Of a DNA stretch of 64,000 nucleotides, positions 14,266-57,279 are shown piece by piece. Source of the stretch: Parcubacteria group bacterium GW2011_GWA1_56_13 (lineage in GTDB: Bacteria; Patescibacteriota; Minisyncoccia; Phycocordibacterales; Phycocordibacteraceae); the NCBI GenBank assembly GCA_001004905.1, contig LCRY01000003.1:24830-88829 (forward strand), in the 5' to 3' direction. A program made the translations under genes and the position numbers. The notes below the pieces were generated by a model that did not search any database, was not told the DNA's origin, and was given only the letters and a program-made list of their open reading frames with translations. Each line of letters opens with the position of its first letter. Position 1 is the first letter of the stretch.

Positions 14266-14784
14266 TTACATCTGACTTTTTGCTTCCTCGTTCTTCTGTT
14301 TCGCTTTTCTCAAAATAGAAACTAATATCTTGGTATATTCTTTTATCCGTGTGTGCTCTTGATTGTCCACATTACGCATTACATCATCTAGAAAATCGTA
14401 TCTAATTTTCGTGAAATTTTCTATATAAACTTCTTTGTCGTCAGTAGTGATAATTTTATATTGGCTACCATCTTCGGTTATTTCCTTTACATCCAACTCT
14501 TCCAAGTTGGTTACGAGTGCTCCCTTTATTGTTGTTATATCGTGTCCTAACTCTCTTAACCTGTCATTGAGGGCTTTTTTATCGGAAAAACTGTTTAGCA
14601 TTACTACCCTGGATTTTAAAATAAGTTCAAAGTTATGGGATAACAAAATATAGAATGACCTTAGATAAGCTATGTCAGTCACATTATTCATTACTCTAGA
14701 TAAAGAATCTTCTATAAACGAAAGTCCTGTAGAAGCTACACTTGTGAGAGCATAAGCATATTTATGTTTTTCTAAGGGTGTCAT
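14266..14784 (-). CDS. Hypothetical protein encoded in the AT-rich islet.
   Basis: 172 aa, K/E/D-rich, with no recognisable family. Composition differs sharply from the flanking high-GC DNA. Confidence 0.45.
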   Translation of the reverse strand: MTPLEKHKYAYALTSVASTGLSFIEDSLSRVMNNVTDIAYLRSFYILLSHNFELILKSRVVMLNSFSDKKALNDRLRELGHDITTIKGALVTNLEELDVKEITEDGSQYKIITTDDKEVYIENFTKIRYDFLDDVMRNVDNQEHTRIKEYTKILVSILRKAKQKNEEAKSQM

Positions 14785-14789
14785 ATTTA

Positions 14790-16052
14790 TTAATTAATAT
14801 CCTTCCTAAACTGTTTTCCTTCGAAGTTTACCAGCTCGACCACTTTGTAGGCTTTCTGTCGTGCCCCATCGAGACTGCTCCCAGAAGCGCTAACTCCAAA
14901 TACTCTGCCGCCATTGGTTACAATCTTTCCATCTTCAGATTTTGTACCTGCATGAAAGACAACTACATCGTCAATATTTTCCGCTTTGGCGATACCGGTG
15001 ATTGGTAACCCCTTCGGATACTTCCCCGGATAACCTGGTGAAGCCAGTACGACGCAACAAGCTGACTTAGATTCCCATTCAATCTGGGTCGAAGATAATT
15101 TTCCTTCAACACAAGCCAGCAAAATCTCGACGAGATCAGTCTTGAGAATCCGCATGTAAGACTGAGTTTCCGGATCTCCAAAGCGGACATTAAACTCCAA
15201 TACCTTTGGTCCCTCTTTGGTGAGCATGATGCCAGGAAAGAGGACGCCTTTAAACGGTCGGCCCATTCTTTTGAGCTCTTGGAGAATCGGCATAACAATC
15301 TCTTGCTTTATTTGGTCCAAAACATTCTTAGAAACTCCTGGCACAGGTGCAATCGTCCCCATGCCACCCGTATTCGGCCCTTTGTCGTTGTCAAAAATTC
15401 TTTTGTGATCTTGCGCGGATGGGAACATGACCGCCGTCTCTCCATCACAGAAGGCGTGGGTTGAGATCTCTTCGCCTTGCAGAAATTCTTCGATAATTAC
15501 CGTCTCACCAGCAGCTCCAAAGGTCTTTTGAGTCATCATTTCTTCCAAAGCCTGTTCGGCTTCTTCTTGCGTTTGTGCAATAACCACGCCCTTACCCAAA
15601 GCAAGACCACAAGCTTTTATGACCAGAGGATATTCATGATCTCGTATATATTCCTTCGCTTTTTCTATATCAGTAAAAGTCTTAGACTTTGCCGTCGGGA
15701 TATTAAGACGCTCAAGCAAATCTTTAGCAAAAGATTTCGACCATTCTATTTCAGCAGCTTCTTTGGTTGGGCCGAAAACTTTTATCTTTTCGCCCTGAAG
15801 CGAATTCACAATACCTAACGCTAGGGCGTCATCAGGACCGACAACTACCAAGTTTATTTCTTTCTTTTTTACGCACTCAATAATGGCCTGATGGTCTGAA
15901 ATGTCGACCGATATATTTTCTCCCAACTCGGCAGTTCCTGGATTGCCAGGGGCAGTAAATATTTTCTTAACCCTTGGGGACTGCTTTAACTTCCACGCAA
16001 GAGCGTGTTCTCGTCCACCGGAACCAATGACTAAAATGTTCATATTTTTCAT
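14790..16052 (-). CDS. purD: Phosphoribosylamine--glycine ligase (GAR synthetase, ATP-grasp).
   Basis: MNILVIGSGGREHALAWKL...NTGGMGTIAPVP... Start refined to MKNMNIL (cat at 16050-16052). The upstream in-frame extension is antisense to the tRNA (the GFESLP motif). Confidence 0.9.
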   Translation of the reverse strand: MKNMNILVIGSGGREHALAWKLKQSPRVKKIFTAPGNPGTAELGENISVDISDHQAIIECVKKKEINLVVVGPDDALALGIVNSLQGEKIKVFGPTKEAAEIEWSKSFAKDLLERLNIPTAKSKTFTDIEKAKEYIRDHEYPLVIKACGLALGKGVVIAQTQEEAEQALEEMMTQKTFGAAGETVIIEEFLQGEEISTHAFCDGETAVMFPSAQDHKRIFDNDKGPNTGGMGTIAPVPGVSKNVLDQIKQEIVMPILQELKRMGRPFKGVLFPGIMLTKEGPKVLEFNVRFGDPETQSYMRILKTDLVEILLACVEGKLSSTQIEWESKSACCVVLASPGYPGKYPKGLPITGIAKAENIDDVVVFHAGTKSEDGKIVTNGGRVFGVSASGSSLDGARQKAYKVVELVNFEGKQFRKDIN

Positions 16053-16071
16053 AGGTTCAAAGTTGCCAATC

Positions 16072-16163
16072 TGGCGGAGGGGGAGGGATTCGAACCCTCG
16101 ATGCGGTTTTATCCGCATAGCGAGTTAGCAACCCGCCGCACTAGGCCTCTATGCGACCCCTCC
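16072..16163 (-). tRNA. tRNA-Ser (anticodon GCT), class II with a long variable arm.
   Basis: Hand-folded: acceptor GGAGGGG/CCCCTCC; D stem CGCA/TGCG; anticodon stem GCGGG/CTCGC with loop TTGCTAA; variable-arm hairpin ATGCGG-ATAA-AACCGCAT; T arm GAGGG-TTCGAAT-CCCTC; encoded CCA. Confidence 0.8.
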
Positions 16164-49924: not shown

Positions 49925-49995
49925 GGAAGTAACTATAACTCCAGACGGTGAGCACAGTGCTTGCGTAATACCCCCAGGGGGTATACCATACGTCC

Positions 49996-50271
49996 ATGGA
50001 GAACAGCAAAGACCTGAGCAAGAAGAAACTCGTGCGCCGACTTCGGATAATCGAAGGGCAGGTGCGCGGGCTTGCCGCGATGATAGACAAGGGCGTCTAC
50101 TGCATTGACGTCATCGCGCAGACCTCGGCAGTGAAGCAGGGGCTCTCGAAAGTAGAGGATCTTCTTCTTGAAAATCATCTCCGGGGGTGCGTGCATGAAC
50201 AAATGACTTCCGGGCAGACGGGGAAAGCCGTAGAAGAAGTGCTGAAAGCGTATACACTGAAGAGAAAATAA
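49996..50271 (+). CDS. csoR: CsoR/RcnR-family metal-sensing transcriptional repressor.
   Basis: LVRRLRIIEGQVRGLAAMIDKGVYCIDVIAQTSAVKQGL...HLRGC, the C-H-C metal-ligand pattern. Immediately upstream of copA. Confidence 0.8.
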   Translation: MENSKDLSKKKLVRRLRIIEGQVRGLAAMIDKGVYCIDVIAQTSAVKQGLSKVEDLLLENHLRGCVHEQMTSGQTGKAVEEVLKAYTLKRK

Positions 50272-50273
50272 AG

Positions 50274-52820
50274 ATGCAGACGAAAACCTACAAGGTAGAG
50301 GGAATGCATTGCGCCAGCTGTGTCGCAGTCATAGAGCGCGTGCTCGGGAAAACCTCCGGTGTGCGTTCCGCCGCGGCAAATGCTGCCGCCGGAACCGTAA
50401 AGATAGAGTTTGACCCGCATGTTGTTTCCGAAGCGGACCTGGCGAAAGCCGTTGGTTCCGTCGGTTATCGCCTCGTCGTGCCCGACTATGCGCCCCGCAC
50501 GGCAAGCGCGGGCACGTTGGAGACCGTTTCAATGAAAGTGCTGGGCATGGACTCTCCCCATTGCGCGATGGTCGTTGACGGTGCATTGAAGAAACTGCCC
50601 GGCGTCAAGCAGACGGACTTAGACTTCGCGAATCAGCGGGCGAAAGTCGCTTTCGATCCGTCGCTGGTGCGGGTACAGCGCATATTCGACGTCATTCTCG
50701 ACGCCGGGTATAAACCGATAGCCGAGGAAGGCAAAGTGGAAGACCTGCTCGACCACGAGAAGGCCGAACGGAAAAAGCAATTGCGGGTCCTCACCACGAA
50801 GCTCGTTGTCGGCGGCATACTTGCCGTGCTCATATTCCTCGGCAGTTTTCCAGAATGGTTCTCGTTCGTGCCCGGCATTCTTGCCGACCGATGGGTGCTT
50901 CTTGTACTTACCACCCCGGTGCAATTCTGGGTCGGTTCCCAGTTCTACAGCGGCCTGCGGCTCCTCGTGAAGTACCGCACCGCCGATATGAACACGCTCA
51001 TCGCCATCGGCACGCTCGCGGCATACTTCTACAGCGCCGCCGTCACGGCCATCCCGTCGTATTTTGCGCAGGGAGGGCTCACGCCGGCGATCTATTTCGA
51101 TACATCCGCCATCATCATCGTGCTCATCCTGCTGGGGAAATACTTTGAAGCCCTCATGAAGGGGCGGGCCTCGGAAGCGATACAGAAGCTCATCGGGCTT
51201 CAGCCAAAAACCGCGAAGATAGTGCGGGAGGGGAAAGAAGTCGAGGTATCCATTGCGGACGTGCGCGTCGGGGATTTGGTGGTCGTGCGGCCCGGAGAGC
51301 GGATCCCGGTTGACGGCGCGATAACGGAAGGGGAATCCGAAATAGACGAATCAATGATCACTGGGGAATCAATGCCGGTCCATAAAAAAATCGGCAGCTC
51401 GGTCATCGGGAGTACGATAAACAAATACGGAACGTTCACGTTCAGGGCGACGAAGGTCGGCGCGGATACGGTGCTCTCGCGCATCATAAAAATGGTGGAG
51501 GATGCACAGGGTTCCAAAGCGCCTATACAGCGGCTTGCGGACTTCGTTTCCTCCTATTTCGTTCCCGCGGTCTTTGTCGTTGCGGTTCTTACCTTCGCGG
51601 CATGGTATTTCTTCAGCCCGGTTCCGAGTGTTACCTTCGCGCTGGTTAATTTCGTCGCCGTGCTCATTATTGCGTGCCCGTGCGCGCTCGGTCTCGCGAC
51701 CCCGATGGCCATCATGGTCGCGTCAGGAAACGCCGCCGGCAGGGGCATGCTGGTGAAGGACGCCGCTTCCCTTGAGATCGCCAACAAGATAAACGCGGTC
51801 ATCCTGGATAAAACGGGCACGCTCACGCAAGGGAAACCGCAATTGACCGACATTGTGGCGTTCGGCAACGGAAGCCAAACGGAGGTGCTCACCTTCGCCG
51901 TTTCCCTGGAACAGCGCTCCGAACACCCGCTCGCACAGGCAGTCTTGCAGTACGCGGCGAGCGTGGACCAGAGATCGTCGCACCCGCTCGATGCCGCGAT
52001 AGCGGCGGAAGCGAAGAGAGAGAAGATGCAGCCGTATGCGCTTGAGAATTTTGAGGCCATTCCGGGCAAAGGACTGCGGGGTACCTTGCGGGTCGGCCCC
52101 GCCTCCTCGCACATCGAGGCGTACCTCGGGAACCGGGCGCTTTTGGCGCATCTCGGCATTGCGCTTGCATCGTATGAAAGCGATATCCAGAAGCTGGAAC
52201 ACCAAGGGAAGACCGTTATGATTCTTGTCGCAGGCAAAAAGGTCATGGGCGCGCTTGCCATCGCCGACGTGCTGAAAGAAGAGTCCTTCCAGGTCGTACG
52301 CGCCCTTAAGGGGCAGGGTATCGAGGTTTGGATGCTTACCGGCGATAATGAACGCACTGCGCGGGCAATCGCGGAGCAGGCCGGTATAGATAATGTCATG
52401 AGCGAGGTTTTGCCGGAACAGAAGTCCCAGAAAGTGCGCGAACTACAGAACCAAGGGAAGATCGTAGCGATGGTCGGCGACGGCATCAATGACGCGCCCG
52501 CGCTCACTCAGGCGCATATCGGCATCGCGATGGGGGAAGGCACGGACATCGCGATGGAATCGGCGAACGTGACGCTCATGCGCGGTGACCTGCGGCTCAT
52601 CCCGGAGATCATCACGCTTTCAAAGCGCACGATGGTCATCATCAAGCAGAACTTGTTCTGGGCGTTCTTCTATAACATCGCGTTCATTCCGGTGGCCGCC
52701 GGGGCCTTGTATCCGTTCTTCGGCATCCTGCTGAATCCCATCTTCGCGGGTGTTGCGATGGCGTTCTCCAGCATTTCAGTCGTAGGAAACTCACTTCGCC
52801 TAAGGACAAGTGTGCTATGA
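50274..52820 (+). CDS. copA: Copper-translocating P1B-type ATPase with two N-terminal heavy-metal-associated domains.
   Basis: GMHCASC (HMA1). A degenerate HMA2 (GMDSPHC). CPC in TM6; DKTGTLT; GDGINDAP; 848 aa. Confidence 0.95.
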   Translation: MQTKTYKVEGMHCASCVAVIERVLGKTSGVRSAAANAAAGTVKIEFDPHVVSEADLAKAVGSVGYRLVVPDYAPRTASAGTLETVSMKVLGMDSPHCAMVVDGALKKLPGVKQTDLDFANQRAKVAFDPSLVRVQRIFDVILDAGYKPIAEEGKVEDLLDHEKAERKKQLRVLTTKLVVGGILAVLIFLGSFPEWFSFVPGILADRWVLLVLTTPVQFWVGSQFYSGLRLLVKYRTADMNTLIAIGTLAAYFYSAAVTAIPSYFAQGGLTPAIYFDTSAIIIVLILLGKYFEALMKGRASEAIQKLIGLQPKTAKIVREGKEVEVSIADVRVGDLVVVRPGERIPVDGAITEGESEIDESMITGESMPVHKKIGSSVIGSTINKYGTFTFRATKVGADTVLSRIIKMVEDAQGSKAPIQRLADFVSSYFVPAVFVVAVLTFAAWYFFSPVPSVTFALVNFVAVLIIACPCALGLATPMAIMVASGNAAGRGMLVKDAASLEIANKINAVILDKTGTLTQGKPQLTDIVAFGNGSQTEVLTFAVSLEQRSEHPLAQAVLQYAASVDQRSSHPLDAAIAAEAKREKMQPYALENFEAIPGKGLRGTLRVGPASSHIEAYLGNRALLAHLGIALASYESDIQKLEHQGKTVMILVAGKKVMGALAIADVLKEESFQVVRALKGQGIEVWMLTGDNERTARAIAEQAGIDNVMSEVLPEQKSQKVRELQNQGKIVAMVGDGINDAPALTQAHIGIAMGEGTDIAMESANVTLMRGDLRLIPEIITLSKRTMVIIKQNLFWAFFYNIAFIPVAAGALYPFFGILLNPIFAGVAMAFSSISVVGNSLRLRTSVL

Positions 52821-53242
52821 TGAAGGCCATGGTTCCTCTTCCGGCAAAAATTATAGCGCCATTCGTTCTCCTGTCATTTTTGACGCTGGCATTCTTCGGT
52901 TTCACCGGCATGTCGTACGGCTCCAACGGACAGATGCAAGGGGACTGCCCGTTTTCCGCGGTGGGAACGTCGCTGTGCCCCCCGAGCGCCCTGCCGGGCG
53001 CGCTACACCATCTCTCCGCATACCAGTCGTTCTTGAACGTGCCGGTGGGTTCCGCGTTCGCCGCGCTCATCATCGGACTGCTCCTCATCGCCTTCGGCCT
53101 TTTGGCATACCGCATCCAGCCGCGCATACTCCCTGTTTCCGCGCGCGGCGCATACTGCACTCACGATCCCCCGGTCTCAGCCCGCACGTGGAAACTGACG
53201 CGCTGGCTCTCTCTTCTTGAGAACAGTCCCGCTCCGCTCTAA
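52817..53242 (+). CDS. Hypothetical membrane protein overlapping the copA stop.
   Basis: Two TM helices flank a Cys/Pro-containing loop (GDCPFSAVGTSLCPPS). 4-nt overlap with copA. Confidence 0.35.
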   Translation: MMKAMVPLPAKIIAPFVLLSFLTLAFFGFTGMSYGSNGQMQGDCPFSAVGTSLCPPSALPGALHHLSAYQSFLNVPVGSAFAALIIGLLLIAFGLLAYRIQPRILPVSARGAYCTHDPPVSARTWKLTRWLSLLENSPAPL

Positions 53243-53339
53243 GAGCACTTAGGAGGCGATCCGCTTTTTGAGTGCTCCCGCTCGCGCCCGTTCGCGAGTC
53301 GTTTGATGTGCGTTCTATAAAACCCCTAATCTCATCACC

Positions 53340-53849
53340 ATGAAATCAATCAGCATCATCTCCATTGTGCTCGTCATCCTCCTCGGGCTTTTCCTATGGG
53401 GATACGGCGGCAGCAAAGGGACCACAGCGTCAGTTCAGGGAGTCACCCAAACGCCCGCATCGGCAAGCGAGCTCACCGCGGCGGAAACCCTCTACGACTT
53501 CGGCACTATCTCAATGAAAGACGGCAATGTCACGAAGGACTTCACGGTGGAAAACACAACCAGCAAAGATATCGTGCTTTCCACGGTGGTCACGTCATGC
53601 ATGTGCACCACCGCGTACGTCGTCGGACCGGATGAGAAAACGAAAGGACCGTTCGGTATGCCGGGCATGGGCTATACGCCTCCGGTAAATGAGGTCATGA
53701 AATCGGGAGAAACTCGGACGGTTCGCGTCGTCTATGACCCGAACGCGCACGGGCCTGCGGGCGTCGGCCGGATCGACCGGTTCGTCACGATCACCGACGC
53801 TACGGGAGGCACTCTAGAACTTGAGGTGAAGGCGCTTGTAACTCCGTAG
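53340..53849 (+). CDS. DUF1573-domain secreted protein.
   Basis: Signal/anchor, then ...TSCMCTT... matching the DUF1573 conserved Cys-x-Cys region. Confidence 0.55.
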   Translation: MKSISIISIVLVILLGLFLWGYGGSKGTTASVQGVTQTPASASELTAAETLYDFGTISMKDGNVTKDFTVENTTSKDIVLSTVVTSCMCTTAYVVGPDEKTKGPFGMPGMGYTPPVNEVMKSGETRTVRVVYDPNAHGPAGVGRIDRFVTITDATGGTLELEVKALVTP

Positions 53850-53871
53850 TCGTGGCGCATCCCATTGAACC

Positions 53872-54651
53872 ATGAAGCGTCTTCTCATTATCGCCGGCAT
53901 CGTCGGGGCGTTCATTCTTGCGGTTATCGCACTGAAATTCAGTCCCGTGACAGCATCACTCATGTGGAATATGAGCCAGGGCGGAGCATGGCTCCTGCCC
54001 CTGGTACTCGTGTCATCGCTTCTCGACAGCGTGCACCCGTGCTCGTTCTCCATCCTGCTCATCACCATCGCGTTCCTCTTCGGTTTGCAGATGACGCGAA
54101 AAAAGATACTGCAGCTGGGGGGCCTGTATATCGCAGGCATCTTCGCAGCGTACCTCCTCATCGGGCTCGGCATCCTGAAGGTGCTGCACCTCTTCAATAC
54201 GCCGCATTTTATGGGGAAGCTCGGCGCGGCGCTTCTCATCATATTCGGCGTCATCAATCTGCTGAACCGGTTCTTCCCGAATATGCCCATTAAACTCGTT
54301 CTGCCCTCCGTGGCCCATCGCCCGATGGCGGCGCTACTCGAGAAAACGTCCGCTGTCGCCGCGTTCGGACTCGGTGCTCTGGTCGGCATCTGCCAGTTCC
54401 CCTGCATGGGCGGCCCGTACCTCATGGTCATCGGCCTCCTGCACGACCAGGTCACATACCTCGCGGGATTCTGGTATCTTTTCCTCTACAATCTCGTCCT
54501 CATCGTTCCGCTCGCGCTCGTCCTGTGGGTCGCGGCGGACAAACTGATGGTGGAAAAGATGCAGGAATGGAAGCTTGCGCACATCGGGCGGGTGCGTCTC
54601 ATCGCAGGCATCGCGATGATACTTATCGGCGTGCTTATCCTCGTCATCTAA
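53872..54651 (+). CDS. ccdA: CcdA/DsbD-like transmembrane thiol-disulfide electron transporter.
   Basis: Six TM helices with one Cys in TM1 (VHPCSF) and one in TM4 (FPCMGGPY), the CcdA arrangement. Confidence 0.6.
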   Translation: MKRLLIIAGIVGAFILAVIALKFSPVTASLMWNMSQGGAWLLPLVLVSSLLDSVHPCSFSILLITIAFLFGLQMTRKKILQLGGLYIAGIFAAYLLIGLGILKVLHLFNTPHFMGKLGAALLIIFGVINLLNRFFPNMPIKLVLPSVAHRPMAALLEKTSAVAAFGLGALVGICQFPCMGGPYLMVIGLLHDQVTYLAGFWYLFLYNLVLIVPLALVLWVAADKLMVEKMQEWKLAHIGRVRLIAGIAMILIGVLILVI

Positions 54652-54655
54652 GCCC

Positions 54656-55090
54656 ATGATCATTCTCGCCACTCTCATCTCGATTCTTGGTGTTACCGCG
54701 CTTGTGTGGCTTGCGAGCCGGTTCCTCCCGCTTACCGTGTGCCCGATCTGCGCGGGTGTATTTCTCACCTGGGTGGGGCTCCTCGTCGCATACCTCTTGG
54801 ACTACCCGATCCCGCAACTTATTCCCGCACTCCTTATGGGCGGATCGGTGGTCGGCGTCACCTCCCTTATGGAGAAGAGATTCACCGGTCCGGCGGGCAC
54901 GCTCCTTACATGGAAGACGTTCTTCATTGTGGCGGGATTCCTCGCTGCATACGCCGTCCTCGAGCGGCTTTGGGGCGTGTTCGTCGGCGCGGCCGCGTTC
55001 CTCATCGTGATATCGTTCGTATTGCTCATGTCCTCGAACCGTGCGGGCGCGGCCGTCGATATCGAGAAACAAATGAAGGATTGCTGCTAG
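54656..55090 (+). CDS. Four-TM membrane protein with a CPIC motif and a C-terminal CC (possible DsbB/VKOR-like oxidoreductase).
   Basis: TVCPICAGV at the edge of TM1-2; terminal KDCC. No firm family assignment. Confidence 0.4.
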   Translation: MIILATLISILGVTALVWLASRFLPLTVCPICAGVFLTWVGLLVAYLLDYPIPQLIPALLMGGSVVGVTSLMEKRFTGPAGTLLTWKTFFIVAGFLAAYAVLERLWGVFVGAAAFLIVISFVLLMSSNRAGAAVDIEKQMKDCC

Positions 55091-55100
55091 CCAACTCGCT

Positions 55101-55994
55101 ATGGAAACCTCATCACACACGCTAGCGGACACCATTCGGCACTATTCCACGCCGCTTAGCATCATTGCCGCCGGCGCGCTCGTCGCGATGGCGATACAGT
55201 ACGCGCCGCCGCCGGGCAGTACGGCGCCGGCGCAAGCGACCGAACTGGAAGAGTCGGTTTTGCCGCCTGCGGGAGTAGTATTGCCAATCACTTGGGGCGA
55301 TCTCGGGGCGCGATTGGCGGAAGTTGGCGCGATCGATGTGGCGAAATTGGAAGCGCTGTATAAGGAGCGCGGAGGATTCTCGTCCGAGTACCGGAAATTA
55401 CTGGAGAAAAACGCAAACGATGCCATCGTCATCACGAGCTGGAACGCGGGATATCTCCTCAACCTTTTCTGGGCGCTCGGACTTGCGAATAAAAATCCGA
55501 TCCTGGAAGACGCTTCGGAAATGCTGAATCCGGTCTATGAAGGCGCTGGCAATTTCGCGTCAACGGGCGGTTGGACGCTCGCGAACGGCAGTGCGATGAG
55601 CCACTACAACATGCACGCGCTCGTGCTGCTTACCGCAGAACAGCAGGCGCTCGTTGACCGCGTGTCGCGCAACATCTTCCGGCCCTGTTGCGGCAATTCG
55701 ACGCACTTCCCGGACTGCAACCACGGCATGGCCATGCTCGGTCTTCTCGAGCTCATGGCGTCGCAGGGCGTGAGCGAAGAGGACATGTACAAGATGGCAC
55801 TCGCGGTGAATTCCTACTGGTTCCCAGATACGTACCTCACCATCGCAAGGTATATGCAACAGCGGAATGTCGCCTGGAAAGACGTCTCGCCGAAGGACGT
55901 GCTCGGCGCGAAGTATTCAAGCGCTTCCGGTTTCGCGAATATCTCCTCGCAAGTAACAGGATCGCCGCAGGGCGGCGGGGGATGTTCGGCATAA
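55101..55994 (+). CDS. Hypothetical membrane-anchored Cys-rich protein (possible metal-binding).
   Basis: N-terminal TM helix; central PCCGNSTHFPDCNHG motif; terminal GGGGCS. Confidence 0.4.
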   Translation: METSSHTLADTIRHYSTPLSIIAAGALVAMAIQYAPPPGSTAPAQATELEESVLPPAGVVLPITWGDLGARLAEVGAIDVAKLEALYKERGGFSSEYRKLLEKNANDAIVITSWNAGYLLNLFWALGLANKNPILEDASEMLNPVYEGAGNFASTGGWTLANGSAMSHYNMHALVLLTAEQQALVDRVSRNIFRPCCGNSTHFPDCNHGMAMLGLLELMASQGVSEEDMYKMALAVNSYWFPDTYLTIARYMQQRNVAWKDVSPKDVLGAKYSSASGFANISSQVTGSPQGGGGCSA

Positions 55995-56393
55995 CCAGGT
56001 TCGTCCGTAATGGGCCGGGTACGGTATATACTAAAGGAGTTAATAACCAACGCTATGATCAACACACAACACCTTCTGAAAGTAACGGCAGTGTGGGTAA
56101 GTATCGTGGACATCATCTGTTTCGCGGGAGTGGCACTGTTCCCGAACATCCGGCCGGCATTCATGCTGTATGGGCTTCATACCACGACCAGCTTGGGCGA
56201 GAATGTCATGACACTCACGACATTCGTTTCCGGTCTCGTGATATGGAACGTCATCGCATTTCTTGCGGTTGGATTGTTCGCTTATTTGTTCAATCGAATG
56301 CACGCTTAACGTCGCCGGAGTGGCAATAGATAACATTCCCTTCGGTCTGTGCGGGTCCGGTGTGTGGTGCCTGAACGAATGCCGAAAACGACT

Positions 56394-57086
56394 ATGCAAT
56401 ACATTTGGCTCGTGTGGAGCTTGGCGCTTATCGCAATTTGGCTCGTTATTTACGCTCTGCTCGACACGCAGGAGAGAAAGAGAGAAATGCTTATTGTCAG
56501 CATATGGACGGCGCTTCTCGGCGTCACGGAACCGTTTTTCGTCCCGCTGTATTGGGCGCCGCCGTCATTGTTCGATCTTGCCCTGCGAACCGGGTTCGAT
56601 ATTGAAAGTTTTCTTTTTTCCTTCGGCATAGGGGGGATTGCGGTCGTCCTCTATGGCATGTTTTTTAGGAATCGTTGCGCTCCCGTATCGGCGAACGAGC
56701 GTCACCGGTCCCGTCACCGCTACCATTGGTGGGCTATCGTATCATCTCCGGTCATTTTCATCGTTCTGTTTTTTGCGACCGCGCTGAATCCGATCTATTC
56801 GGCGATAATCGCTATGACGGTGGGGGGTGTTGCCGCATTGCGCTGCCGACCGGACTTAAAAAAGAAAATGGCAACAAGCGCTCTTTTGTTTTTAGGGCTC
56901 TATTTCGTTTATTTTCAGGTGCTCATCATTCTTTCACCCGGGTATGTCGAACGGGTCTGGAACATGGAAGCCCTTTCAGGCGTCCTGATCGCGGGAATAC
57001 CTCTTGAAGAGCTTCTATTCGCGGTCAGCTTCGGCTTTTTCTGGTCAAGCATTTACGAACACATCGCGTGGAAGAAGTTAAATTAG
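56394..57086 (+). CDS. Lycopene-cyclase-domain-like membrane protein (CrtYcd-type repeat).
   Basis: Two internal repeats, each ending in a P-x-E-E-like charged motif within TM helices (IPLEELLFAVSFGFF). Start ambiguous; ATG at 56394. Confidence 0.45.
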   Translation: MQYIWLVWSLALIAIWLVIYALLDTQERKREMLIVSIWTALLGVTEPFFVPLYWAPPSLFDLALRTGFDIESFLFSFGIGGIAVVLYGMFFRNRCAPVSANERHRSRHRYHWWAIVSSPVIFIVLFFATALNPIYSAIIAMTVGGVAALRCRPDLKKKMATSALLFLGLYFVYFQVLIILSPGYVERVWNMEALSGVLIAGIPLEELLFAVSFGFFWSSIYEHIAWKKLN

Positions 57087-57138
57087 CGGGTGTATAATCA
57101 TCGTACAGTAGTCGCATTATCGGTAACCAAAAACTAAC

Positions 57139-57279
57139 ATGATGGGATACGGGACAACATATGGGTATGGCTCAATGATGGCAGGGTTCGGCTCGTTCGG
57201 ACTCATCACATGGCTCGTCATCCTCGTCGACCTCGTTTTGGTCGGCATCTGGCTCTGGCAGCAGATAACAAAGAAGTAG
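57139..57279 (+). CDS. Small ORF (46 aa) encoding a GYG-repeat N-terminus plus a single TM helix.
   Basis: MMGYGTTYGYGSMMAGFGSFGLITWLVILVDLVLVGIWLWQQITKK. Below the ORF-track cutoff; lies in an intergenic gap. Confidence 0.3.
   Translation: MMGYGTTYGYGSMMAGFGSFGLITWLVILVDLVLVGIWLWQQITKK

What the first reader, a model, noticed from the sequence alone, without database searches (positions are those of the whole stretch)
49996..55994. Copper sensor/exporter (csoR-copA) followed by an extracytoplasmic thiol-redox cluster with uncharacterised Cys-motif proteins
Downstream of csoR-copA lie five genes. The first is a small membrane protein with a CPFS..LCPPS loop, overlapping copA by 4 nt. The second is a DUF1573 secreted protein (TSCMCTT). 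The third is a CcdA/DsbD-type electron transporter (Cys in TM1 and TM4). The fourth is a 4-TM protein with CPIC and a terminal CC. The fifth is an anchored protein with the dense motif PCCGNSTHFPDCNHG. Taken together this resembles a system that delivers reducing equivalents across the membrane to protect or mature extracytoplasmic cysteines, or to chaperone Cu(I), under copper stress. Three of the five proteins have no assigned function. The CCx5HxxDCxH motif is a plausible novel copper site.
Basis: inference. Interest (0 to 1): 0.55.

Follow-up and report, generated by a model that had tools for sequence, protein, structure and literature searches.

The report
Copper-pump operon with envelope thiol-redox module
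A copper-export operon in a Candidatus Kaiserbacteria genome carries a strongly conserved set of cysteine-rich envelope proteins, several from undescribed families, that probably bring reducing power across the membrane to deal with exported copper.

Summary
All seven ORFs are at the stated coordinates. csoR has a perfect operator (49968-49984) and copA is a Cu(I)-type pump.

The five downstream genes are not a chance neighbourhood. In 80 species-level Patescibacteria genomes the order is p3, then [DUF1573 + p5] or [DsbD_TM + redoxin], then [p6, a soluble CC-tailed protein, or nothing], then p7. copA lies within 10 kb in 39 of 40 loci with enough flank.

p5 is a divergent CcdA/DsbD_TM homologue (hhalign 96.8%) and keeps both Pro-Cys motifs.

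p7 (297 aa) belongs to a large unannotated family: more than 6,890 clusters at 90% identity, present in at least 592 species genomes. It has no Pfam or PDB relative and a confident AF2 model (pLDDT 91). Invariant residues are C196, C197, N199, D205, C206 and C295; H208 is about 90% conserved and H202 is not conserved. Relatives carry HMA, rhodanese, DsbC_N or CPxC-membrane domains fused to the p7 domain. Its Cys-bearing core weakly resembles CcmH. Homologues sit beside P-type ATPase, cueR and ccdA on Burkholderia plasmids.

Best reading: a copper-linked envelope reducing pathway that ends in p7, working like Scs or CcdA-CcmG-CcmH but built from new parts. The chemistry of p7 is unproven.

The parts
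49968..49984 (.). CsoR operator, the perfect inverted repeat ATACCCCC-A-GGGGGTAT, 12 nt upstream of csoR
   Evidence: It is the only site in the window (0.02 expected). Boxes of the form TACCC-N3-7-GGGTA occur 40 times in 1.26 Mb of related loci against 5.8 expected, and 25 of them lie directly upstream of csoR.
49996..50271 (+). csoR, a Cu(I)-sensing repressor (91 aa)
   Evidence: PF02583 at 8.5e-25. Cys36, His61 and Cys65 are present. From my own knowledge these positions match the Cu(I) ligand triad of M. tuberculosis CsoR.
50274..52820 (+). copA, a P1B-1 Cu(I)-exporting ATPase (848 aa) with two N-terminal HMA domains
   Evidence: TIGR01511 at 610 bits (cutoff 397) and TIGR01525 at 663 bits. 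CPC (C468/C470), N-x6-YN-x4-P and MAFSS motifs read directly from the translation. The second HMA domain has SPHC in place of CxxC.
52817..53242 (+). p3, a 2-TM protein with an outward loop carrying C44-x9-C54 and H65 and a cytoplasmic tail WLxLxENSP. It overlaps the copA stop by 4 nt.
   Evidence: No family found. Present in 62 of 80 loci, and in 54 of 61 with at least 4 kb upstream. Invariant C44, C54, H65, W130 and P138.
53280..53299 (+). Terminator-like hairpin in the 97-nt gap between p3 and p4. Its significance is doubtful.
   Evidence: Found in the consensus scan, but the number of such sites in the region equals the shuffle expectation.
53340..53849 (+). p4, a membrane-anchored or secreted DUF1573 protein (Ig-like) with an invariant TSCMCT motif. 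Proposed extracytoplasmic electron shuttle.
   Evidence: PF07610 at 2.2e-12 and the HYDIN/VesB Ig-like model. Weak match to the OS_HP2 (seleno)protein family. DUF1573 selenoproteins carry a UGC motif (PMC9312934). Invariant C87, M88 and C89, plus M59, M107 and H137.
53872..54651 (+). p5, a divergent CcdA/DsbD_TM-type thiol-disulfide transporter (259 aa) with a 6-TM core plus an N-terminal TM. Motifs HP-C57 and FP-C178.
   Evidence: hhalign against the DsbD_TM family of sister loci: 96.8% probability, E 2.8e-10, 189 columns, both Pro-Cys motifs aligned. Homologues are 76-97% identical, some carry precomputed PF02683 or PF11139 hits, and some are named 'cytochrome c biogenesis protein CcdA' by their source.
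54656..55090 (+). p6, a 5-TM protein with C29-P-I-C32 at the predicted cytoplasmic end of TM2 and a cytoplasmic C-terminal helix ending in C143-C144
   Evidence: The family was found only among Patescibacteria-labelled or unlabelled sequences. Invariant CPxCAGV, MGGSVVG and terminal CC. AF2 pLDDT 72, with no PDB fold match. In P0130 it is fused to p7. It alternates with the soluble CC-tailed s168 family and the two never co-occur.
55101..55994 (+). p7, an N-terminally anchored extracytoplasmic protein (297 aa) and founding member of an unannotated family. Cys cluster C196-C197...D205-C206-N-H208 plus tail Cys C295 (G-G-C-x-x-end).
   Evidence: At least 6,890 clusters at 90% identity, 581 clusters at 50% and at least 592 species genomes. 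Invariant residues. Cys sits at position -3 in 235 of 270 sequences. AF2 pLDDT 91 and pTM 0.83. No Pfam, NCBIfam or PDB relative. Domain fusions.
56010..56309 (+). p8, a DUF5676 2-TM protein and accessory gene of the island
   Evidence: PF18926 at 3.6e-9. Recurs in 10 of 80 loci, and next to distant p7 members.
56349..57086 (+). p9, a membrane protein with a Lycopene_cyc domain and accessory gene of the island. The start codon is uncertain.
   Evidence: PF18916 at 1.3e-17. Recurs beside copA in L001, L023, L054, L066, L089, L093 and L094.
57139..57279 (+). p10, a 46-aa Gly/Met-rich single-TM peptide
   Evidence: An ORF listed. Homologues occur in 7 related loci. Function unknown.

Best explanation
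This is a CsoR-controlled copper-stress operon. When Cu(I) binds CsoR, the operator at 49968-49984 is released and CopA pumps Cu(I) out.

The genes behind copA encode an envelope module specific to Patescibacteria, with scattered relatives elsewhere:
- p5, a divergent CcdA, takes electrons from a cytoplasmic thiol donor and passes them through its two membrane-embedded Pro-Cys motifs to the outward-facing DUF1573 protein p4 (CxC).
- In sister genomes a canonical DsbD_TM plus a TlpA/CcmG-like redoxin does the same job.
- The terminal acceptor is p7, a membrane-anchored extracytoplasmic protein. Its invariant Cys cluster (C196-C197, C206 at a helix N-cap, H208) is served by a flexible Gly-rich tail Cys (C295).
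- Reduced p7, probably together with the Cys/His loop of p3 next to the pump exit, captures exported Cu(I), reduces copper-oxidised thiols in envelope proteins, or does both.
- p6 contributes cytoplasm-facing CPxC and CC sites and is physically coupled to p7's anchor. In relatives this role is filled by the soluble CC-tailed s168 protein, a fused HMA domain or a fused CPxC membrane domain. These may dock p7 to the copper-loaded side of the pump.

Shown: gene content, family membership of csoR, copA, p4 and p5, conservation, synteny, mutually exclusive alternatives and domain fusions.
Inferred: the direction of electron flow, p7 as the acceptor, and the copper-related chemistry.
For: 1. Copper control and pump. 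CsoR family hit with the C36/H61/C65 triad and a unique operator. CopA is a Cu-type P1B ATPase.

2. Synteny in 80 species genomes.
- copA in 39 of 40 loci with at least 5 kb on each side.
- p5 or DsbD_TM in 57 of 61 loci with at least 4 kb upstream, never both.
- DUF1573 or Redoxin in 68 of 80, never both.
- p6 or s168 in 48 of 80, never both.
- Almost all on the same strand as p7, in a fixed order.

3. Reverse control. The loci of the CopA relatives that are at least 64% identical show module genes wherever flanks allow; three of them include p7 (L092, L096, L098). Among the roughly 68 CopA relatives at 40-55% identity, only 2 have p7.

4. p5 is homologous to DsbD_TM and both Cys are aligned.

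5. p7-domain fusions point to thiol or metal chemistry.
- DsbC_N dimerisation domain in P0126 (38 bits, cutoff 25).
- Cytoplasmic HMA in P0127.
- Rhodanese in P0149 and P0151.
- p6 in P0130.
- A 4-TM CPxC domain in about 17 of 150 representative clusters.

6. Distant members keep the same company.
- DUF1573 and CopA.
- DUF411/CopG and a CopY/BlaI-type repressor.
- DsbD_TM, Redoxin, DUF5676 and Lycopene_cyc.
- On Burkholderia plasmids: cueR, ccdA, peroxiredoxin-family protein, thioredoxin, ICMT, P-type ATPase and then the p7 homologue, with the motifs retained.

7. The p7 Cys core resembles CcmH, the thiol reductase downstream of DsbD/CcdA and CcmG.
- Foldseek local match to 2hl7: 61 columns, rmsd 1.6 Å, TM 0.66 normalised to CcmH.
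- hhalign aligns p7 177-230 with CcmH 8-62, score 25.8, against 12.0 ± 2.5 (max 22.2) for 200 column-permuted profiles.
- The secondary-structure pattern matches.

8. The DUF1573 family includes selenoproteins with U in the CxC-type motif, which fits a redox role.

9. Precedent. Copper-induced Scs systems couple a DsbD-like transporter to envelope thiol oxidoreductases that also bind Cu(I) (abstracts of PMC10907172, PMC8900818, PMC5524982 and PMC3322552).
Against: - No experiment exists and nothing shows that p7 binds copper or is redox active.
- The CcmH similarity is weak: hhalign probability 16.7%, Foldseek E 6.8, no Pfam CcmH hit even at E ≤ 10.
- The window's p5 is not recognised by Pfam DsbD_TM directly.
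- A 97-nt gap with a hairpin separates p3 from p4. No CsoR box precedes p4, and only 2 of 50 loci have a box before p3 when p3 is not directly behind copA. Copper regulation of p4-p7 is therefore inferred from operon structure only.
- The predicted topology puts p6's cysteines on the cytoplasmic side, which does not fit a simple role in an extracytoplasmic redox relay.
- Burkholderia homologues carry a Tat-like RRRF signal (my reading). That hints at a cofactor-loaded protein rather than a simple dithiol reductase.
- A SAM methyltransferase or ICMT gene often sits nearby, and the model does not explain it.
Confidence: 0.5

Rival explanations
1. Transmembrane metal relay, Mer-like. The paired and vicinal cysteines of p6 (CPxC and CC tail), p3 and p7 hand Cu(I) or another thiophilic metal from cytoplasm to outside by ligand exchange. 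p5 and p4 only keep the thiols reduced, and p7 is chiefly a high-affinity Cu(I) sink or chaperone in the manner of CueP or CopL.
For: - The p6 and s168 families end in CC, and accessory membrane proteins carry vicinal CC in TM helices.
- An HMA domain replaces p6 on the cytoplasmic side of p7's anchor in P0127.
- Invariant Cys4 plus a conserved His in p7.
- Tat-type signal in Burkholderia homologues (my reading).
- From my own knowledge, the vicinal Cys pairs of MerT, MerF, MerA and Cox17 bind Hg(II) or Cu(I).
Against: - CopA already provides the export path.
- p7 has a single TM anchor, so it cannot conduct metal itself.
- No merA or merR genes are in the loci.
- No homology between p6 and any transporter could be shown.
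- The consistent pairing with a CcdA-type reductant transporter, a redoxin, a DsbC_N fusion and a CcmH-like core points to thiol-disulfide exchange as the central chemistry.
Confidence: 0.22
2. Cuproprotein maturation. p7 acts like Sco or PCuAC and inserts copper into an envelope cupredoxin. The CcdA/redoxin pair plays the TlpA role of reducing the chaperone and its target.
For: - A Cupredoxin_1 gene and an HMA-DsbD_2 gene follow p7 in 25-29 of 80 loci.
- Burkholderia islands contain SCO, TlpA and c-type cytochromes.
Against: - The window has no cupredoxin or HMA-DsbD_2 gene.
- The neighbouring cupredoxin carries a C...CxMxM motif (read). From my own knowledge that is the CupA-type Cu(I) chaperone site, not an enzyme centre.
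- The module tracks the efflux pump and its repressor.
Confidence: 0.1
3. Extracytoplasmic repair reductase for oxidised residues such as methionine sulfoxide or sulfenic acids. This would be analogous to CcdA-Etrx-MsrAB2 of Streptococcus pneumoniae or to DsbG, and linked to copper only because copper causes oxidative damage.
For: - The gene order DsbD_TM, Redoxin, then p7 mirrors ccdA-etrx-msrAB2 (the precedent is from my own knowledge).
- A Gly-rich tail Cys is typical of resolving cysteines in Msr and Prx enzymes (own knowledge).
- Peroxiredoxin-family genes and MsrQ lie in the Burkholderia islands.
Against: - No similarity to MsrA, MsrB or Prx.
- HMA, CopG and cueR/csoR associations point to the metal itself.
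- From my own knowledge many Patescibacteria live anaerobically, where sulfoxide damage is minor.
Confidence: 0.1
4. The genes are unrelated neighbours, or p7 is a true CcmH orthologue left over from cytochrome c maturation.
For: The weak CcmH-like signal.
Against: - Fixed order and strand in 80 genomes, with mutually exclusive functional alternatives.
- None of the genes called around p7 in the inspected loci has a cytochrome c maturation (ccm/ccs) family hit, and no cytochrome c gene was seen there.
- CxxC is replaced by PCC, and the protein is three times the size of the CcmH domain.
Confidence: 0.03

Closest known systems
Scs (suppressor of copper sensitivity) system ScsABCD of Salmonella, Proteus and Caulobacter
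   Same: Copper-induced. A DsbD-superfamily membrane protein carries reductant to extracytoplasmic Cys-based proteins that confer copper tolerance. ScsC also binds Cu(I) very tightly (abstracts of PMC10907172, PMC8900818, PMC5524982 and PMC3322552).
   Different: The window has no thioredoxin-fold partner and uses a DUF1573 Ig-like CxC protein instead. The transporter is a minimal CcdA-like protein without ScsB's periplasmic domains. The terminal protein p7 has no detectable relation to ScsC or ScsD. The regulator is CsoR. The host lineage (Patescibacteria) is different.
Thio-reduction branch of cytochrome c maturation System I: DsbD/CcdA, then CcmG, then CcmH
   Same: The same three-tier logic and, in sister loci, the same kinds of first two components (DsbD_TM plus a TlpA/CcmG-like redoxin). 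The p7 Cys loop and its flanking helices align with CcmH in profile and in 3D, though weakly.
   Different: None of the genes called around p7 in the inspected loci has a ccm/ccs family hit, and no cytochrome c gene was seen there. p7 has PCC...DCNH in place of LRCxxC...DSNA. It is about 250 aa outside the membrane with extra subdomains and a tail Cys. Its context is copper efflux.
CueP (Salmonella periplasmic copper-binding protein kept reduced by Scs/DsbC); own knowledge
   Same: An envelope Cys-containing copper-handling protein that works downstream of the Cu(I) P-type ATPases and needs a reducing pathway to stay functional.
   Different: No sequence or fold similarity. CueP is soluble and its fold differs from the mainly helical p7 model (own knowledge).
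CcdA-Etrx-MsrAB2 of Streptococcus pneumoniae and TlpA-ScoI of Bradyrhizobium; own knowledge
   Same: The operon logic of a CcdA-type transporter, an anchored redoxin and an anchored client protein on the outer face of the membrane.
   Different: The client here is an unrelated, uncharacterised family. The linkage is to copA/csoR rather than to oxidative-stress or respiratory genes.
Mer transport proteins (MerT, MerF, MerC) and the MerA C-terminal CC tail; own knowledge
   Same: Vicinal or paired cysteines in TM helices and at flexible C-termini, as in p6, s168, m96 and m148.
   Different: No detectable homology and no merA or merR genes. The regulator and pump are copper-specific.

Membership tests
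CsoR (copper-sensitive operon repressor) | Match to the Trns_repr_metal model | tested here: met
   PF02583 at 87.4 bits, cutoff 22.8.
CsoR (copper-sensitive operon repressor) | Cu(I) ligand triad Cys-His-Cys, as opposed to the Cys-x-Cys of persulfide-sensing CstR | tested here: met
   Cys36, His61 and Cys65 are present. That these are the ligand positions comes from my own knowledge of M. tuberculosis CsoR.
CsoR (copper-sensitive operon repressor) | GC-rich inverted-repeat operator in its own promoter | tested here: met
   ATACCCCCAGGGGGTAT at 49968-49984 is unique in the window. The same box precedes csoR in 25 related loci.
CsoR (copper-sensitive operon repressor) | Copper-dependent release from DNA | not testable with these tools
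   Needs EMSA or in vivo reporters.
P1B-1 Cu(I)/Ag(I) ATPase (CopA) | Match to copper-translocating P-type ATPase models above cutoff | tested here: met
   TIGR01511 at 610 bits (cutoff 397) and TIGR01525 at 663 bits (cutoff 346).
P1B-1 Cu(I)/Ag(I) ATPase (CopA) | TM motifs CPC, N-x6-YN-x4-P and M-x2-SS, plus an N-terminal HMA domain | tested here: met
   Read directly from the translation (ACPCALG, NLFWAFFYNIAFIP, MAFSS). HMA at 1e-26.
DUF1573 (PF07610) | Model match above the gathering score, with a CxC-type motif | tested here: met
   47.3 bits against 26.1. TSCMCT is invariant in 59 of 59 relatives.
CcdA / DsbD_TM thiol-disulfide transporters (for p5) | Direct match to PF02683 | tested here: not met
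   The window protein has no Pfam hit at E ≤ 0.1. Some homologues at 80-86% identity carry precomputed PF02683 or PF11139 hits.
CcdA / DsbD_TM thiol-disulfide transporters (for p5) | Homology detectable by profile-profile comparison | tested here: met
   hhalign against the DsbD_TM family (itself PF02683 at 3e-12): probability 96.8%, E 2.8e-10, 189 columns.
CcdA / DsbD_TM thiol-disulfide transporters (for p5) | Two conserved Cys, each after a Pro, in core TM1 and TM4 | tested here: met
   P56-C57 and P177-C178 are invariant and align with the template's Cys positions.
CcdA / DsbD_TM thiol-disulfide transporters (for p5) | Transfers electrons from cytoplasmic thioredoxin to an outside partner | not testable with these tools
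   Needs biochemical or genetic assay.
Scs copper-tolerance system | ScsB-type DsbD with periplasmic N-terminal domains, plus thioredoxin-fold ScsC/ScsD | tested here: not met
   p5 has only the TM core plus one extra TM. The window has no thioredoxin-fold protein in the cluster. The resemblance is one of working principle only.
CcmH/NrfF/CycL (for the Cys core of p7) | Match to the family model or profile | tested here: inconclusive
   No Pfam hit even at E ≤ 10 on 8 subdomain sequences. hhalign against a 12-sequence CcmH profile gives score 25.8, P 0.0015 and probability 16.7%, and exceeds all 200 permuted controls.
CcmH/NrfF/CycL (for the Cys core of p7) | Three-helix bundle with the redox loop between helix 1 and helix 2 | tested here: inconclusive
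   Foldseek local match to 2hl7: 61 columns, rmsd 1.6 Å, TM 0.66 normalised to CcmH, but E 6.8 and probability 0.38. The secondary-structure pattern 179-240 fits.
CcmH/NrfF/CycL (for the Cys core of p7) | LRCxxC active-site motif and a ccm gene context | tested here: not met
   p7 has RPCC. None of the genes called around p7 in the inspected loci has a ccm/ccs family hit.
Any described family (for p3, p6 and p7) | Hit in Pfam, NCBIfam, PDB sequences or PDB folds | tested here: not met
   - p3, p6 and p7 have no Pfam hit at E ≤ 0.1.
- In NCBIfam, p7 has no hit; p3 and p6 have only chance-level matches far below cutoff (Opp3C at 12.3 bits against 450; EccD at 13.2 bits against 95).
- The p7 family scan found only scattered single-member hits, apart from the DsbC_N fusion.
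- PDB sequence searches for p7 gave no significant hit.
- Foldseek against PDB gave no match at E ≤ 0.001 for p7 or p6.
- p3 was not searched against PDB sequences or folds.

The most novel reading that the evidence does not exclude
p7 founds a new family of extracytoplasmic Cys4(His) proteins. The family is found across many Parcubacteria-type lineages, with scattered relatives on proteobacterial copper-resistance plasmids. Its fold has no solved relative and is built around a CcmH-like redox core with a swinging tail cysteine. It would be the terminal component of a previously unrecognised copper-stress envelope system in which DUF1573 acts as an Ig-like electron shuttle for a minimal CcdA (a split, DsbD-alpha-like arrangement). 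p3, p6 and s168 would be further new copper- or thiol-handling families.
Probability: 0.35. Interest if true: 0.75.

Novelty: new variant of a known kind. Interest (0 to 1): 0.62.

Why it matters
Patescibacteria have tiny genomes, yet many of them keep this module, and p5 and p7 are unusually conserved for the group (65-97% identity among the closest homologues). It is therefore likely to be a central part of how these episymbionts survive copper or thiol stress at their cell surface.

The locus would give first functions to several sizeable unannotated families: p7, p3, p6, s168 and the widespread DUF1573. It points to a CcdA-fed redox or copper protein with no solved-structure relative.

Homologues sit next to a P-type ATPase, cueR and ccdA on plasmids of culturable Burkholderia. 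The hypothesis can therefore be tested genetically today, which is rarely possible for candidate-phyla proteins.

Tried and rejected
- The p7 profile against PDB sequences returned only noise: designed repeat proteins and All4940. The p4 profile against PDB returned only chance prion and urease hits.
- Pfam on p7 subdomains at E ≤ 10 found nothing.
- A second CsoR operator before p4 or p3 was rejected. There is none in the window and only 2 of 50 related loci have one.
- The p3-p4 hairpin as a terminator is not above shuffle expectation.
- Homology of p6 with the CPxC membrane domain fused to long p7 proteins was rejected (hhalign probability 9.6%). Homology of that domain with the accessory m148 family is only suggestive (43%).
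- A mercury system was rejected: no mer genes, and both regulator and pump are copper-specific.
- A GlyGly-CTERM or sortase-type sorting signal for the p7 tail was rejected, because only two residues follow the Cys and there is no TM segment.
- Literature searches for DUF1573 with copper, for Parcubacteria with copper and CcdA, and for CcmH with copper resistance found no description of this module.

Full report
**1. What is in the sequence**

Ten consecutive + strand ORFs run from 49996 to 57279.
- csoR is 91 aa (PF02583, 8.5e-25) and has Cys36, His61 and Cys65.
- A perfect inverted repeat, ATACCCCCAGGGGGTAT, sits 12 nt upstream at 49968-49984. It is the only such site in the window, against 0.02 expected.
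- copA is 848 aa and exceeds the NCBIfam cutoffs for copper-translocating P-type ATPases. The CPC, N-x6-YN-x4-P and M-x2-SS motifs are readable in the translation.
- p3 (141 aa) overlaps the copA stop by 4 nt. A 97-nt gap follows, and then p4 to p10 are separated by 4-52 nt.
- The GC content of the region matches the rest of the window.
- The exact p7 and p6 proteins are on record as hypothetical proteins of a Candidatus Kaiserbacteria bacterium.

**2. Family assignments**

- p4 is a DUF1573 protein (47.3 bits against a cutoff of 26.1). It has an invariant TSCMCT motif.
- DUF1573 includes selenoproteins with a UGC motif (PMC9312934; weak OS_HP2 match), which fits a redox-active CxC.
- p5 has no direct Pfam hit. 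Its homologues are 76-97% identical and exactly 259 aa long. Some carry precomputed DsbD_TM or SfLAP hits, and several are named CcdA by their source.
- A profile of p5 relatives aligns with the true DsbD_TM proteins of sister loci at 96.8% probability (E 2.8e-10). P56-C57 and P177-C178 fall on the template's Cys positions.
- p3, p6 and p7 match nothing significant in Pfam or NCBIfam.

**3. The p7 family**

- p7 has at least 6,890 relatives at 90% clustering, the top ones 65-82% identical. It has 581 clusters at 50% identity and occurs in at least 592 species-representative genomes.
- In a 71-sequence alignment spanning 32-85% identity, the invariant residues are W124, C196, C197, N199, D205, C206 and C295. 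H208, R194, P195 and ASTGGW are at least 90% conserved. H202 is variable.
- The tail Cys sits exactly three residues from the C-terminus in 235 of 270 sequences, after a Gly-rich stretch.
- The AF2 model is confident (pLDDT 91, pTM 0.83) except for the N-terminal cytoplasmic stub, the linker after the anchor and the last seven residues, which suggests a flexible tail.
- C196 and C197 lie in a loop, and C206 is at the N-cap of helix 207-221.
- No solved structure matches the whole domain.

**4. Comparative genomics**

I annotated 80 genome loci with profiles built from the window and two sister loci.
- The canonical order is p3, then [DUF1573-p5 or DsbD_TM-Redoxin], then [p6, s168 or nothing], then p7. 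Almost all of these genes are on one strand.
- The module is linked to copA and csoR, and often to HMA-DsbD_2 plus a cupredoxin. Accessory small Cys-rich membrane proteins, ICMT, YHS, DUF5676 and a Lycopene_cyc-domain protein also recur.

Counts:

| Feature | Loci |
|---|---|
| copA, loci with ≥5 kb on each side | 39 of 40 |
| p5 or DsbD_TM, loci with ≥4 kb upstream | 57 of 61, never both |
| DUF1573 or Redoxin | 68 of 80, never both |
| p6 or s168 | 48 of 80, never both |

- The mutually exclusive pairs are the strongest functional evidence. DUF1573+p5 occupy the slot of a textbook CcdA-type transporter plus a TlpA/CcmG-like redoxin.
- As a reverse control I fetched 80 CopA relatives from metagenomes. 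The loci of the Kaiserbacteria-like pumps (at least 64% identity) show module genes wherever flanks allow, and three of them include p7 (L092, L096, L098). Only 2 of about 68 more distant pumps have p7.
- The association is therefore lineage-specific and is not an artefact of the profiles.

**5. Fusions and distant members**

The p7 domain is found fused to several other domains:
- a DsbC_N dimerisation domain (P0126, above the Pfam cutoff);
- a cytoplasmic HMA domain ahead of the anchor (P0127);
- an extracytoplasmic rhodanese domain (P0149 and P0151);
- p6 itself (P0130);
- a 4-TM domain with a CPxC motif, in some cases followed by a CxxC pair, in about 17 of 150 representative clusters.

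Distant members keep copper-related neighbours:
- DUF1573 and CopA;
- DUF411/CopG and a BlaI/CopY-type repressor;
- DsbD_TM, Redoxin, DUF5676 and Lycopene_cyc.

Homologues also occur on plasmids of culturable bacteria.
- On Burkholderia and Paraburkholderia plasmids a 38-40% identical homologue retains YRPCCDNST..DCNHG and the SCG tail Cys.
- In B. contaminans it follows a heavy-metal P-type ATPase in a cluster that starts with cueR. The cluster also holds ccdA, a peroxiredoxin-family protein, a thioredoxin and ICMT.
- In B. thailandensis it lies among multicopper oxidase, CopG, DsbD, CcdA, TlpA and SCO genes.

**6. A CcmH-like core?**

- Foldseek's only compact local match was the periplasmic domain of CcmH (2hl7): 61 columns, rmsd 1.6 Å, TM 0.66 normalised to CcmH, but E 6.8.
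- By eye, RPCCGNSTHFPDCNHG...QGVSEEDM resembles the CcmH segment LRCPKCQNNSIADSNS...EGKSKKEI.
- I confirmed the CcmH sequences from the PDB and built a 12-sequence CcmH/NrfF profile.
- hhalign aligned p7 177-230 with CcmH 8-62 at score 25.8, P 0.0015 and probability 16.7%.
- 200 column-permuted profiles gave 12.0 ± 2.5 with a maximum of 22.2.
- The helix-loop-helix-turn-helix pattern of the model fits.
- Pfam's CcmH model does not hit.

I treat this as suggestive only. If it is real, the module reproduces the CcdA, CcmG, CcmH reduction chain. None of the genes called around p7 in the inspected loci has a cytochrome c maturation family hit.

**7. Topology**

- Hydropathy, the positive-inside rule and the AF2 model give p6 five TM helices, with the N-terminus outside.
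- CPIC then lies at the cytoplasmic end of TM2, and the CC tail is cytoplasmic.
- This agrees with the P0130 fusion, where the CC runs straight into p7's anchor.
- The p3 loop with C44, C54 and H65 is predicted to face outside.

**8. Regulation**

- CsoR boxes are strongly enriched in the related loci and lie almost always before csoR.
- When the module is not directly behind copA it usually has no box of its own (2 of 50).
- In a few genomes csoR directly precedes p3 (L066, L079).
- In the window, copper control of p4-p7 depends on read-through across the p3-p4 gap, and this is untested.

**9. Conclusion**

The locus is a real and very strongly conserved copper-associated envelope thiol module. 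It works most like the Scs system and the CcdA-CcmG-CcmH chain. It is not a member of either, because its key proteins (p3, p6, p7 and the alternative s168) belong to undescribed families. Electron flow to p7 and p7's chemistry (Cu(I) capture, thiol repair or both) are inferences.

Noticed in passing
L001 9015-10404; L004 9225-10665 (absent from the window): In 25-29 of 80 related loci p7 is followed by an HMA-DsbD_2 membrane protein and a small anchored Cupredoxin_1 protein. The cupredoxin's Cys...(37 aa)...C-x-M-x-M motif looks like the binuclear Cu(I) site of the pneumococcal chaperone CupA (my own recollection).
   Followed up: partly
L001 7491-7997 and 28 other loci: A soluble, helical, probably cytoplasmic 168-aa family (s168) has invariant W-C88...K-H92 and a C-terminal D-C-C-x-E. 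It occupies the p6 slot in 27 of 80 loci and never co-occurs with p6. It has no Pfam or PDB relative.
   Followed up: partly
L001 5997-6863 and 18 relatives: The DsbD_TM proteins that replace p5 carry vicinal Cys pairs in both redox helices (APCC and TCCAP) instead of the usual single Cys.
   Followed up: no
L001 811-1971; many loci (m96, m148, x143): Accessory island genes recur with copA and p7. m96 is a 96-aa His/Met-rich membrane protein with CC in its TM and a GCCH end. m148 is a 148-aa membrane protein with SCCAH in a TM helix. x143 is a 143-aa secreted protein. m148 may be related to the CPxC membrane domain fused to long p7 proteins (hhalign 43%).
   Followed up: partly
L183 9871-10485; L182 10015-10581; L091 3121-4113; ICMT in L001 4804-5457, L183 4592-5251 and 12 of 80 loci: Outside Patescibacteria, a class I SAM methyltransferase lies directly downstream of p7. 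Both CPR and Burkholderia islands also carry an ICMT-family methyltransferase. No explanation offered so far accounts for a methylation step.
   Followed up: no
L182 8953-9906; L183 8863-9813: The Burkholderia p7 homologues start with a twin-arginine-like signal (GF(T/A)RRRFL) instead of a TM anchor. This hints at export in a folded, possibly cofactor-loaded state. Their tail Cys is followed by about 18 extra residues.
   Followed up: no
window 50517-50717 (CopA residues 82-148): The second HMA domain of CopA has GMDSPHC in place of the canonical GMxCxxC, so it has a single Cys preceded by His. It also matches the NCBIfam 'UxxU metal-binding (seleno)protein' model.
   Followed up: no
window 14266-16163: A low-GC stretch (0.42 against about 0.59) holds a purD-like 442-aa ORF (14790-16118, - strand) and a 172-aa ORF (14266-14784, - strand), abutting tRNA-Ser (16072-16163, - strand). 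It may be horizontally acquired DNA at a tRNA.
   Followed up: no
Contig of P0243 (no DNA held); L090 5800-6405: In distant p7 contexts, DUF2085 membrane proteins sit directly upstream of p7. DUF302, PCYCGC and DUF2933 genes are nearby, so further unstudied families travel with p7.
   Followed up: no
window 56349-57086: The listed GTG start of the Lycopene_cyc-domain ORF is probably too far upstream. Homologues begin near the internal Met at about 56397 (MQYIWLVW...).
   Followed up: no
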